IMG/VR virus record: IMGVR_UViG_3300005573_000069 | Location: 37,034-101,033 of that record | Strand: one strand, 5' to 3' | DNA: 64,000 nucleotides | DNA from: a virus | Translations under genes and position numbers: made by a program | Shown here: positions 23,428 to 24,018 of the stretch, one piece after another | Layout of the letters: each line of letters begins with the position of its first letter | How positions within the stretch are numbered: the stretch's first letter is position 1 | Notes under the pieces: generated by a model | What the model saw: the letters and a program-made list of their open reading frames with translations, nothing else | Databases searched by the model: none | What the model was told of the DNA's origin: nothing

Positions 23428-23456
23428 TTGACAGATTTTATCAGCCACGCTATAAT
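23428..23456 (+). promoter_or_regulatory. perfect sigma-A promoter for truncated tnpB
   Basis: TTGACA-17-TATAAT. Confidence 0.85.
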
Positions 23457-23487
23457 TATCTCAAAATCCAAAAAGGAGGTCATCATT

Positions 23488-24018
23488 TTGGATTCAATCA
23501 CCTGCCAAATTTTCCCCACCAAAAGCCAAGAAAAAACTTTTAACTCGTGGCTCAAGCAATGTTGCGCACTTTACAACACGCTTATTGATCACCGGCAAAA
23601 TTCCTGGACGCAACAAAAAATCCATGTAACACTTAATCAACAAACCAAACTAATCACGACACTGAGAAAAGAAAATCCTAAGCTCAAAAATATTTATTCT
23701 CAGGTTTTGCACAATGTGGCTTACCGTGTTGACAAGGCATACAACCGGTTCTTTCTCTCAGTCAACATGAAGATTCCTACGACTTCTCCCAAACACATAA
23801 CGGGGGCGGAATACAATTCATTTACCTACCCCCAATATGGCTTCAAACTCACCCACCAAGGCTTATACCTGTCCAAAATTGGCACTGTCCGTCTTCAACT
23901 ACCGGAAAACTTTAACCTAGACGATTTCAAGTCTTGCACAATCATCCGCAAAGAAACTGAATGGTACGTCATGTTTCATCCCCCATATTCTCCCAAGAAA
24001 CTTCGGGGACCTAAGTAA
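23488..24018 (+). CDS. tnpB: TnpB-derived protein, N-terminal lobe only (no RuvC)
   Basis: IFPTKSQ..LYN..YSQVL...VDKAYNRFF..PK...SFTYPQ..GF..LSKIG.V..KSCTI.R..WYV; TTG start after AAAGGAGG. Confidence 0.8.
   Translation: MDSITCQIFPTKSQEKTFNSWLKQCCALYNTLIDHRQNSWTQQKIHVTLNQQTKLITTLRKENPKLKNIYSQVLHNVAYRVDKAYNRFFLSVNMKIPTTSPKHITGAEYNSFTYPQYGFKLTHQGLYLSKIGTVRLQLPENFNLDDFKSCTIIRKETEWYVMFHPPYSPKKLRGPK

What the first reader, a model, noticed from the sequence alone, without database searches (positions are those of the whole stretch)
23428..24018. Domesticated half-TnpB: recognition lobe only, cut at the domain boundary, under a perfect promoter
Seen: TTGACA-17-TATAAT, AAAGGAGG and TTG, then 176 aa aligning to TnpB from the first strand (IFPT..Q) through KIG.V and WYV, stopping just before RuvC-I. 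No RuvC remnant, tnpA or IS end is visible downstream, and base composition matches the local skew. Known: TnpB's N-lobe (WED/REC) reads the TAM and holds the guide; described domesticated TldRs keep a full-length dead RuvC. Inference: a new RuvC-less TnpB derivative acting as a DNA-binding regulator or origin factor beside the AT-rich tract, or as a decoy inhibitor of TnpB/Cas12-type guide RNPs.
Basis: partly seen in the sequence, partly recalled or inferred. Interest (0 to 1): 0.78.

Follow-up and report, generated by a model that had tools for sequence, protein, structure and literature searches.

The report
Phage gene: TnpB recognition half only
A hot-spring phage keeps only the DNA-recognition half of a transposon RNA-guided nuclease (TnpB) as a small early gene, and its codons show purifying selection, so it looks like a re-used protein rather than junk, although its job is unknown.

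Summary
Window 23488-24018 (+) is a 176-aa ORF with a TTG start. It sits behind a 12/12 TTGACA-17-TATAAT promoter and an AAAGGAGG ribosome-binding site.

- **Homology:** it matches only the N-terminal half of TnpB (NCBIfam guided_TnpB positions 2-179 of 389). It folds as a complete WED+REC lobe (pLDDT 95; TM 0.81 to ISDra2 TnpB).
- **Truncation point:** it stops in the inter-lobe linker, about 3 residues before the RuvC-I motif.
- **Missing parts:** no RuvC, TNB or TnpA is found anywhere in the 110-kb phage genome, and no Rfam RNA family around the gene.
- **Second lineage:** a phage lineage 84% identical across the gene has the same gene with the same stop and no indels. dN/dS is 0.245 (0.93 and 1.28 out of frame; p = 1.3e-7). 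Homology ends about 8 nt after the stop, in a hypervariable AT tract.
- **Divergence from TnpB:** it has fewer Lys+Arg than all 82 compared relatives. It carries Glu at the residue that contacts the guide RNA in ISDra2, and it sits on a very long branch.

Best reading: a selected, stand-alone TnpB recognition lobe with no nuclease and probably no guide RNA, acting by binding. The regulator, origin-factor and decoy roles are untested. Only two lineages from one habitat are known. N-lobe-only ORFs are otherwise common IS debris. Verdict: new variant of a known kind, moderate interest.

The parts
23428..23456 (+). Sigma-70/SigA-type consensus promoter, TTGACA-17-TATAAT
   Evidence: Scores 12/12. 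Only six perfect sites with a 16- or 17-nt spacer occur on both strands of the 110-kb genome. Both hexamers are identical in lineage L003/L005, while 5 positions of the spacer differ.
23472..23479 (+). Shine-Dalgarno AAAGGAGG, 8 nt before the TTG start
   Evidence: Read directly from the sequence. In L003 it has a 1-nt deletion and reads AAAGGGG.
23488..24018 (+). tnpB-N gene: 176 aa (20.8 kDa, pI 9.7) plus TAA stop. Residues 1-12 and about 101-164 form WED, 13-100 form REC, and 165-176 are a linker tail.
   Evidence: Family matches. AF2 model pLDDT 95.2. Foldseek hits 8h1j_A with TMq 0.81 and 8ex9_A with TMq 0.78 / TMt 0.82. dN/dS is 0.245 overall: REC 0.27, WED 0.19, tail about 2.
24019..24454 (.). 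Hypervariable AT tract (19.7% GC) abutting the stop codon. Candidate origin or regulatory region.
   Evidence: Composition. It cannot be aligned between the two lineages although both flanks are 86-88% identical. A 17-nt repeat-unit indel separates the 99%-identical contigs L003 and L005.
24271..24293 (.). Palindrome ACTTTTCTGC-GAA-GCAGAAAAGT inside the AT tract
   Evidence: Found. L005 has TTTTCTAC-GAA-GTAGAAAA at the matching place, a change on both arms that keeps the pairing (sequence).
24304..24375 (+). Four same-orientation T(G/A)TATCA repeats at 24304, 24323, 24342 and 24369
   Evidence: TGTATCA occurs at 6.9 per kb in the tract against 0.15 per kb in the genome. L005 also has four copies in one orientation, in otherwise unalignable sequence.
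22815..23427 (.). Conserved non-coding spacer between the integrase start and the tnpB-N promoter (context)
   Evidence: 85-89% identical to L003, with fully conserved patches and frame-breaking indels. No Rfam match. No copy elsewhere in the genome.
21945..22814 (-). Xer-like tyrosine recombinase, divergently transcribed 673 nt upstream (context)
   Evidence: Pfam Phage_integrase 2e-26 plus the SAM-like N-terminal domain. NCBIfam XerA/XerC-like. dN/dS of its first 108 codons is 0.135 at the same dS of 0.48.
24593..24621 (+). Second perfect promoter, which drives the genes to the right of the AT tract (context)
   Evidence: 12/12 with an extended TG. Conserved in L005.

Best explanation
This is a stand-alone TnpB recognition lobe (WED+REC, 176 aa). 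It descends from an IS200/IS605-family tnpB that entered a phage of hot-spring bacteria.

The nuclease lobe (RuvC/TNB), the omega-RNA region and the IS ends were lost before two surviving phage lineages split. What remains has been kept as a protein-coding early gene behind a consensus host-sigma promoter.

It cannot cut DNA. It has probably also lost guide-RNA binding, because half of the RNA-binding surface (RuvC) is gone and family-conserved basic residues are replaced. One of these is the residue that contacts the guide-scaffold junction in ISDra2.

It most likely works by binding alone. My preferred mechanism is guide-free contact with duplex DNA through the largely intact TAM-reading cleft, acting as an early regulator or roadblock.

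- **Shown:** anatomy, fold, absence of RuvC, and purifying selection.
- **Inferred:** expression, loss of RNA binding, DNA binding, and any target.
For: **Anatomy**
- Homology to the TnpB N-half only.
- The model superposes on ISDra2 TnpB. It covers all of 8ex9_A, the state in which only WED+REC are ordered on RNA and DNA (TMt 0.82).
- The end point lies in the inter-lobe linker.

**Nothing else of TnpB in the genome**.

**Selection**
- The second lineage has the same TAA stop, no indel in 531 nt, and 85 substitutions distributed 25/17/43 over the three codon positions.
- NG86 dN/dS is 0.245, against 0.93 and 1.28 in the other frames, and 0.135 for the neighbouring integrase at equal dS.
- The excess of synonymous changes has p = 1.3e-7.
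- Both folded domains are constrained (REC 0.27, WED 0.19), while the linker tail is not.

**Expression signals**
- One of six perfect consensus promoters in the genome, with its hexamers conserved across lineages, plus a strong Shine-Dalgarno site.

**Remodelling consistent with loss of RNA binding**
- 38 of 59 family-conserved columns are kept. The 21 lost include K5T, R7Q, R26C, R90L, R91S, K104I, H139P and R140E.
- Lys+Arg is 21, against 32.7 +/- 3.2 (minimum 26) in 82 relatives.
- By my reading of the alignment, E140 is the equivalent of ISDra2 Q148, which stacks on omega-RNA nucleotide -1A.

**TAM cleft mostly kept**
- S71 and Q72 (equivalent to ISDra2 K76 and F77) and T113-Y114-P115-Q116 (equivalent to Q121-N124) keep the family consensus.
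- Only the Q80 equivalent has changed, to H in one lineage and Y in the other.
Against: - Only two lineages are known, and they co-occur in the same hot-spring samples. All selection evidence therefore rests on one pairwise comparison.
- No transcript or protein data exist.
- The protein lies on the second-longest branch of the tree (0.97 substitutions per site). It has lost a third of the family-conserved residues.
- Its coding strand is G-poor at all three codon positions, unlike other phage genes. This also fits a period of relaxed constraint and mutational drift.
- N-lobe-only ORFs are frequent IS debris.
- The high pLDDT comes partly from the alignment of full-length relatives. It does not show that the isolated lobe is stable.
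- TAM-only contacts of TnpB/Cas12 proteins are weak in the known enzymes (established knowledge), so guide-free specific binding is not assured.
Confidence: 0.58

Rival explanations
1. It is a slowly decaying relic of an IS200/IS605 insertion. Its 3' half was deleted by turnover of the adjacent AT tract. The ORF is still open, but the product has no function.
For: - N-lobe-only ORFs are common, and the two checked on long contigs are broken TnpBs. Metagenome and AFDB clusters of such fragments exist.
- The phage is demonstrably invaded by this superfamily: an IscB sits at 36641-38035.
- The protein has a long branch, has lost 21 of 59 conserved residues, and has an atypical G-poor codon composition.
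- The C-terminal tail shows dN/dS above 1.
Against: - dN/dS is 0.245 with p = 1.3e-7, and the constraint is specific to this reading frame.
- There are no indels or stops after 16% divergence, whereas the flanking spacer has 7 gap positions.
- The stop is kept exactly at the edge of a tract that is otherwise completely scrambled.
- The promoter hexamers are conserved.
- Unlike the checked debris, there is no RuvC piece downstream.
Confidence: 0.25
2. It is a decoy or dominant-negative inhibitor of host or rival TnpB/Cas12f-type ribonucleoproteins. The free recognition lobe would compete for TAM/PAM sites or guide RNA. Alternatively it would take the place of the second protomer that Cas12f dimers use mainly through their REC lobe.
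For: - It is an early gene behind a consensus promoter.
- The fold also matches Cas12f chains in which only about 175-200 residues of the second protomer are ordered: 7wju_B, 8dzj_B, 9nzt_B.
- The nearest full-length TnpBs (P0005, P0006) sit on phage-like contigs, P0005 in a sample of the same ENA accession series as the window phage. Competing elements may therefore share its habitat.
Against: - Many basic residues that would hold RNA are lost, and Glu sits at the Q148-equivalent position.
- No target system is identified, because the host is unknown.
- TnpB is not known as an anti-phage defence (established knowledge).
Confidence: 0.1
3. The unit that matters is the promoter, which drives transcription into the AT tract (for example to activate an origin). 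The ORF is an incidental leader.
For: - No intrinsic terminator lies on the + strand between the stop and the tract.
- The tract has an AT-rich half, a conserved palindrome and four direct repeats. The strand skew flips there.
Against: - The three-base periodicity of substitutions and the frame-specific dN/dS show constraint at the protein level, not only on a transcript.
- A second perfect promoter at 24593 serves the downstream genes.
- This reading is compatible with the best explanation rather than exclusive of it.
Confidence: 0.05
4. It is a split or interrupted gene. The nuclease half would lie beyond an intron-like AT insertion or elsewhere, or would be read in another genetic code.
For: Nothing beyond the abrupt end at a domain border.
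Against: - No RuvC/TNB signal appears in any of the six frames of the whole genome, while the N-terminal control scores 160 bits.
- No Rfam intron or IS605-orfB RNA match.
- The sequence right of the tract is a promoter plus an unrelated 72-aa zinc-ribbon ORF that is conserved in L005.
Confidence: 0.02

Closest known systems
TnpB, the RNA-guided endonuclease of IS200/IS605 elements (ISDra2 TnpB; PDB 8H1J, 8EXA, 8EX9)
   Same: The WED+REC recognition lobe is the same. Sequence identity to the nearest relatives is 33-39%, TM is 0.78-0.81, and most family-conserved core and TAM-cleft residues are kept.
   Different: It has no RuvC, no TNB zinc finger, no C-terminal domain, no omega-RNA region, no IS ends and no TnpA. 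It has fewer basic residues than any of the 82 relatives compared.
TldR (TnpB-like nuclease-dead repressors) and dCas12f-sigmaE
   Same: Both are TnpB/Cas12f derivatives fixed outside a transposon. Some are carried by phages. All have lost the nuclease function and have C-terminal truncations.
   Different: TldR and dCas12f keep a degenerate RuvC domain and an adjacent guide RNA, and they act as RNA-guided DNA binders. Here the whole NUC lobe is missing, no guide was found, and RNA-contact residues have changed.
Tyrosine-recombinase-associated, fully inactivated TnpBs (Altae-Tran et al. 2023, PMC10691335)
   Same: An inactivated TnpB derivative lies next to a phage-integrase-like tyrosine recombinase, which sits upstream in either orientation.
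   Different: The published examples are described as inactivated TnpBs; the passages read here mention no loss of the nuclease lobe. Membership of their clades was not tested. The sister of this protein in my tree is an apparently active TnpB on a phage-like contig.
Ordinary truncated or frameshifted tnpB pseudogenes
   Same: These are ORFs of about 170-200 aa that carry only the HTH_OrfB_IS605 region.
   Different: The two checked on long contigs have RuvC/TNB pieces or a gap downstream and no sign of a dedicated promoter. This one has none of the 3' half, is conserved with the same stop, and is under purifying selection.

Membership tests
TnpB (IS200/IS605 RNA-guided endonuclease, NF040570 / NF038281) | N-terminal WED+REC lobe homologous to the family | tested here: met
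   Profile positions 2-179/389, E 9.6e-15. 1658 phmmer hits. TM 0.81 to 8h1j_A.
TnpB (IS200/IS605 RNA-guided endonuclease, NF040570 / NF038281) | RuvC domain with the D-E-D catalytic triad | tested here: not met
   The ORF ends about 3 residues before the RuvC-I motif. No RuvC is found in six frames of the genome.
TnpB (IS200/IS605 RNA-guided endonuclease, NF040570 / NF038281) | TNB / zinc-ribbon insertion | tested here: not met
   PF07282 is absent from the genome. The C-terminal HMM finds nothing.
TnpB (IS200/IS605 RNA-guided endonuclease, NF040570 / NF038281) | Whole-protein score over the curated cut-off | tested here: not met
   54.7 bits against a cut-off of 100, and 48.9 against 425.
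TnpB (IS200/IS605 RNA-guided endonuclease, NF040570 / NF038281) | Omega-RNA overlapping the 3' end, IS ends, and a TnpA partner | tested here: not met
   The 3' end is missing. No Rfam match at E up to 1. No Y1 transposase. No DNA similarity to the ends of the nearest relatives' loci.
TldR (nuclease-dead TnpB repressor) | TnpB fold kept, including a degenerate RuvC domain | tested here: not met
   Only WED+REC are present. TldRs keep a RuvC domain.
TldR (nuclease-dead TnpB repressor) | Adjacent guide RNA with a scaffold and a short guide | tested here: inconclusive
   Downstream lies a 19.7% GC tract that cannot be aligned between lineages. No Rfam family matches. A novel RNA cannot be excluded without RNA data.
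TldR (nuclease-dead TnpB repressor) | Fixed, non-mobile genomic context under selection | tested here: met
   The flanks are the same in two lineages and dN/dS is 0.245. Only two lineages are known.
TldR (nuclease-dead TnpB repressor) | RNA-guided DNA binding that represses a promoter | not testable with these tools
   Needs RIP-seq, ChIP-seq and reporter assays.
Tyrosine-recombinase-associated inactivated TnpB (PMC10691335) | Tyrosine recombinase gene next to the TnpB derivative | tested here: met
   The recombinase at 21945-22814 (-) lies 673 nt upstream and is divergent. The pairing is conserved in L005.
Tyrosine-recombinase-associated inactivated TnpB (PMC10691335) | Phylogenetic placement in one of the three described clades | not tested
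The sister here is P0006, an apparently intact TnpB.
Tyrosine-recombinase-associated inactivated TnpB (PMC10691335) | Inverted repeats or att sites around the recombinase | tested here: inconclusive
   Only a weak 27-nt direct repeat (81% identity) at 21843 and 24557 flanks the block.

The most novel reading that the evidence does not exclude
The protein would be the first TnpB descendant that works with neither nuclease nor guide RNA. In this reading it is a free WED+REC 'TAM reader' that recognises a short duplex-DNA motif on its own.

The candidate target is the array of four same-orientation T(G/A)TATCA repeats in the hypervariable AT tract next to its gene. From there it would control replication initiation or early transcription of the phage.

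One detail fits co-evolution with a fast-changing site, although it is n = 2: the single changed TAM-cleft residue (the ISDra2 Q80 equivalent) differs between the two lineages, H in one and Y in the other.
Probability: 0.15. Interest if true: 0.8.

Novelty: new variant of a known kind. Interest (0 to 1): 0.5.

Why it matters
TnpB is the ancestor of Cas12. It has been re-used many times, as Cas12 effectors, as TldR repressors and as sigma-coupled dCas12f.

A selected protein made of the recognition lobe alone would show that this lobe is an independent evolutionary module. It would hint at a guide-free use of the TAM-reading cleft, or at a decoy use against TnpB/Cas12f-type complexes.

It would also give a 21-kDa natural minimal domain for studying TAM recognition. 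If it proves to be inert debris, it still shows how IS200/IS605 elements erode inside phage genomes.

Tried and rejected
- **Viral contig scans:** three scans of viral contigs found no relative. The queries were the protein, a two-sequence alignment, and the sigma-like neighbour.
- **Metagenome scan:** it found only the second lineage (L005/L006).
- **Cultured phages:** only full-length or split TnpBs at 23-34% identity.
- **Short homologues:** most representatives of about 175-190 aa lie on contigs under 2 kb, so they are fragments. The two on long contigs, P0066 and P0130, are broken TnpBs.
- **Atlas and AFDB:** clusters of N-lobe-length entries exist but are named fragments. BFVD gave mainly full-length viral TnpB/Fanzor-like proteins.
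- **Weak tblastn hit:** a recurrent hit of RuvC-half queries at genome 6437-7027 (outside the window) falls in a 197-aa protein with a GGALGVDQ motif. The alignment shows no catalytic or zinc residues. I judged it chance.
- **Rfam:** no match in 20500-25300 at E up to 1.
- **5' UTR fold:** not better than shuffled sequence, z = -0.77.
- **RNA runs:** no RNA holder is listed for this DNA.
- **Laid contigs:** contigs of two DNA runs showed only the two known lineages. An apparent 607-nt 'skip' fits the diverged second lineage rather than a deletion.
- **Homodimer prediction:** no verdict.
- **Global MAFFT alignment:** aligning the query with full-length proteins mis-stretched the query tail. I replaced this by cutting relatives at the G-x-D-x-G motif.
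- **IS ends of nearest relatives:** no DNA similarity to the phage.
- **Residue mapping:** the mapping to ISDra2 residues was read by eye from the alignment to 9yyg_A. Its numbering matches the ISDra2 residues named in PMC10097598. This is a reading, not a structural superposition.

Full report
**Setting.** The window is bases 37034-101033 of a 109,955-bp IMG/VR virus record with direct terminal repeats. Its DNA is held by two hot-spring metagenome runs.
- It encodes terminase, portal, ligase, exonuclease and a sigma-like protein.
- The portal is most like those of large siphophages of Bacillota, at about 30% identity.
- Genes left of about 22.8 kb run on the minus strand and genes right of about 24.6 kb run on the plus strand.
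- The finding lies in the 4-kb interval between these two blocks.

**Observation.**
- A 12/12 TTGACA-17-TATAAT site lies at 23428-23456. It is one of six perfect sites with a 16- or 17-nt spacer on both strands of the genome.
- AAAGGAGG lies at 23472-23479, the TTG start at 23488 and the TAA stop at 24016-24018.
- The 176-aa product matches TnpB only over the N-terminal half: NCBIfam guided_TnpB positions 2-179/389 at E 9.6e-15 but below the curated cut-off; Pfam HTH_OrfB_IS605; PHROG 506.
- An exhaustive phmmer search gave 1658 hits. The best are 355-380-aa TnpBs at 33-39% identity, with query residues 6-163 aligned to their residues 8-164.

**Fold and cut point.** AlphaFold2, run with 84 sequences, gave pLDDT 95.2 and pTM 0.88.
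- Foldseek's best solved matches are ISDra2 TnpB: 8h1j_A with TMq 0.81, and 8ex9_A with TMq 0.78 and TMt 0.82.
- 8ex9_A is the state in which the RuvC domain is unresolved and only 166 residues are ordered. The phage protein therefore equals the part of TnpB that stays ordered on RNA and DNA by itself.
- The ISDra2 domain borders are WED 1-12 and 117-176, REC 13-116, and RuvC from 185 (PMC10097598).
- I read the profile alignment to 9yyg_A. Its numbering reproduces the ISDra2 residues named in that paper (Y52, S56, K76, F77, Q80, Q121, T123, N124, Q148, N156, D191).
- By that reading, the last phage strand (158-164) is the last WED strand. Residues 165-176 are the inter-lobe linker. The stop falls about 3 residues before G-V-D-L-G.
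- 'Cut at the domain boundary' is accurate.

**Is the other half anywhere?** No.
- The full TnpB profile, PF01385 (RuvC), PF07282 (TNB) and PF01797 (TnpA) find nothing more in six frames of the whole genome.
- An HMM built from the RuvC+TNB halves of 58 relatives gave only negative scores, while the matching N-half HMM scored 160 bits.
- A weak recurrent tblastn hit at genome 6437-7027 is an unrelated 197-aa protein.
- Rfam finds nothing in 20.5-25.3 kb.

**Is the gene kept?** Only one other lineage was found: JGI contigs L003/L006 and L005, which are 99% identical to each other.
- L005 is 86-88% identical to the window over 21937-24088 and 24455-25855.
- The 366 nt of AT-rich sequence between those blocks cannot be aligned. 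Homology ends about 8 nt after the shared TAA.
- Across the 531-nt ORF there are 85 substitutions and no indel. The 670-nt spacer upstream has 7 gap positions.
- The substitutions fall 25/17/43 on codon positions 1/2/3.
- Nei-Gojobori dN/dS is 0.245 (dS 0.48). The other two frames give 0.93 and 1.28, and the neighbouring integrase gives 0.135 at the same dS.
- The synonymous excess has a binomial p of 1.3e-7.
- REC (0.27) and WED (0.19) are both constrained, while the linker tail is not.
- Both promoter hexamers are identical while the spacer between them has 5 changes.
- Both lineages occur together in the two runs, at roughly 4:1 contig depth.

**How it differs from working TnpBs.**
- Of 59 alignment columns that are at least 70% conserved in 82 relatives, the phage protein keeps 38.
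- The 21 losses are enriched in basic residues: K5T, R7Q, R26C, R90L, R91S, R102K, K104I, H139P and R140E.
- Lys+Arg is 21, against 32.7 +/- 3.2 with a minimum of 26. Net charge is +10 against +18.5.
- E140 aligns with ISDra2 Q148, which stacks on omega-RNA nucleotide -1A.
- The equivalents of the TAM-contact residues mostly keep the family consensus (S71, Q72, T113-Q116). The exception is the Q80 equivalent, which is H here and Y in the other lineage.
- In a tree of the N-lobes, the phage pair sits on a 0.97 substitutions-per-site stem, the second-longest of 164 branches. Its sister is P0006, an apparently intact TnpB on a 176-kb phage-like contig.
- The coding strand is G-poor at all three codon positions, unlike other plus-strand phage genes. 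It shares the C-over-G skew of the integrase and spacer, and the skew flips exactly at the AT tract.

**Surroundings.**
- A Xer-like tyrosine recombinase lies 673 nt upstream and is divergent.
- The AT tract (24019-24454, 19.7% GC) contains a palindrome that is kept in L005 through a change on both arms. It also holds four same-orientation T(G/A)TATCA repeats, which occur four times in L005 too.
- A 17-nt repeat unit is gained or lost between the near-identical contigs L003 and L005.
- The tract has the look of an origin or a protein-binding array, but this is inference.
- A second perfect promoter at 24593 drives a conserved 72-aa zinc-ribbon ORF.
- The phage also carries an IscB (RRXRR+HNH) at 36641-38035. 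IS200/IS605-superfamily elements therefore do enter this genome.

**Interpretation.**
- The simplest history is that a tnpB element inserted here and lost its 3' half, omega-RNA and ends. The remainder was fixed before the two lineages split.
- Frame-specific constraint, the exact retention of the stop beside a scrambled tract, and the conserved consensus promoter all argue that the product is made and matters.
- The missing RuvC surface and the changed basic residues argue that it no longer holds a guide RNA.
- What it binds is unknown. I favour guide-free duplex-DNA contact through the retained TAM cleft.
- A decoy role against TnpB/Cas12f-type complexes, or no function at all, remain open.

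**Comparison with the literature.**
- TldRs and dCas12f proteins lose catalytic residues and often the zinc finger and part of RuvC. They keep a RuvC domain and a guide.
- Inactivated TnpBs next to tyrosine recombinases have been noted.
- I found no description of a selected RuvC-less form in the papers searched.
- N-lobe-only ORFs as such are common debris.

**Verdict.** The feature is real. It is a new variant of a known kind. The proposed functions are untested. Interest 0.5.

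Noticed in passing
window 36641-38035 (+): A 465-aa protein with Pfam RRXRR (1.1e-19) plus HNH, the IscB domain pair. It shows that the phage carries another IS200/IS605-superfamily OMEGA nuclease. An earlier scan note reads it as an intact IscB element inserted in the 3' end of the prohead protease gene.
   Followed up: partly
window 24019-24454; L005 2078-2420: A hypervariable AT tract that cannot be aligned between lineages. Both versions contain a GAA-looped palindrome, with a pairing-preserving change on both arms. 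Both also have four same-orientation T(G/A)TATCA repeats, spaced 19, 19, 27 nt and 38, 18, 37 nt. A 17-nt repeat unit differs between the 99%-identical contigs L003 and L005. It may be an origin or a binding array.
   Followed up: partly
window 21269-21413: A second AT-rich tract with six degenerate ATATTAATATG-type repeats and 44-nt inverted repeats, left of the integrase. The integrase, spacer and tnpB-N block therefore lies between two AT-rich repeat regions.
   Followed up: no
window 21843-21869 and 24557-24583: A 27-nt direct repeat (81% identical) around a TTTTTCAAAAA core, flanking the integrase/tnpB-N/AT-tract block. It could be a pair of att-like sites of a small island, or chance in A/T-rich DNA.
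   Followed up: no
window 21945-24018: Strong C-over-G excess on the + strand whatever the coding direction: integrase -0.60, spacer -0.42, tnpB-N -0.30. It flips to +0.21 at 24019. The tnpB-N coding strand has only 15% G at codon position 1. The cause is unexplained.
   Followed up: partly
whole genome; window 23428 and 24593: Only six perfect TTGACA-N16/17-TATAAT sites occur in 110 kb. Three are on each strand and two flank the AT tract. They are probably the host-sigma early promoters of the phage.
   Followed up: partly
window 25196-25747 (+): A 183-aa protein that matches the C-terminal part of PHROG 5767 'sigma factor' (3.2e-12). It also has a C-terminal Cys-rich motif like Lar or endonuclease VII zinc modules. 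It lies 1.2 kb from tnpB-N. Sigma-coupled dCas12f systems exist, but no link is shown here.
   Followed up: no
window 22800-24700 in runs X1 and X2: Both phage lineages, about 85% identical to each other, occur together in both hot-spring runs at roughly 4:1 contig depth. A short piece at 24016-24079 is shared with other contigs of the samples, seen as a depth spike and loose ends.
   Followed up: no
L013 (P0006 locus) and L014 (P0005 locus): The two nearest full-length TnpBs lie on phage-like contigs full of small unannotated ORFs. One contig is 176 kb and carries an intein-bearing gene. P0005 comes from the same ENA sample series as contig L004.
   Followed up: no
genome 6437-7027 (-), outside the window: A 197-aa protein with a GGALGVDQ motif. 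It gives weak local similarity (E about 1e-3) to the DAxW..F....YKAE.AG...VDP segment of several TnpB RuvC halves. I judged this chance.
   Followed up: partly
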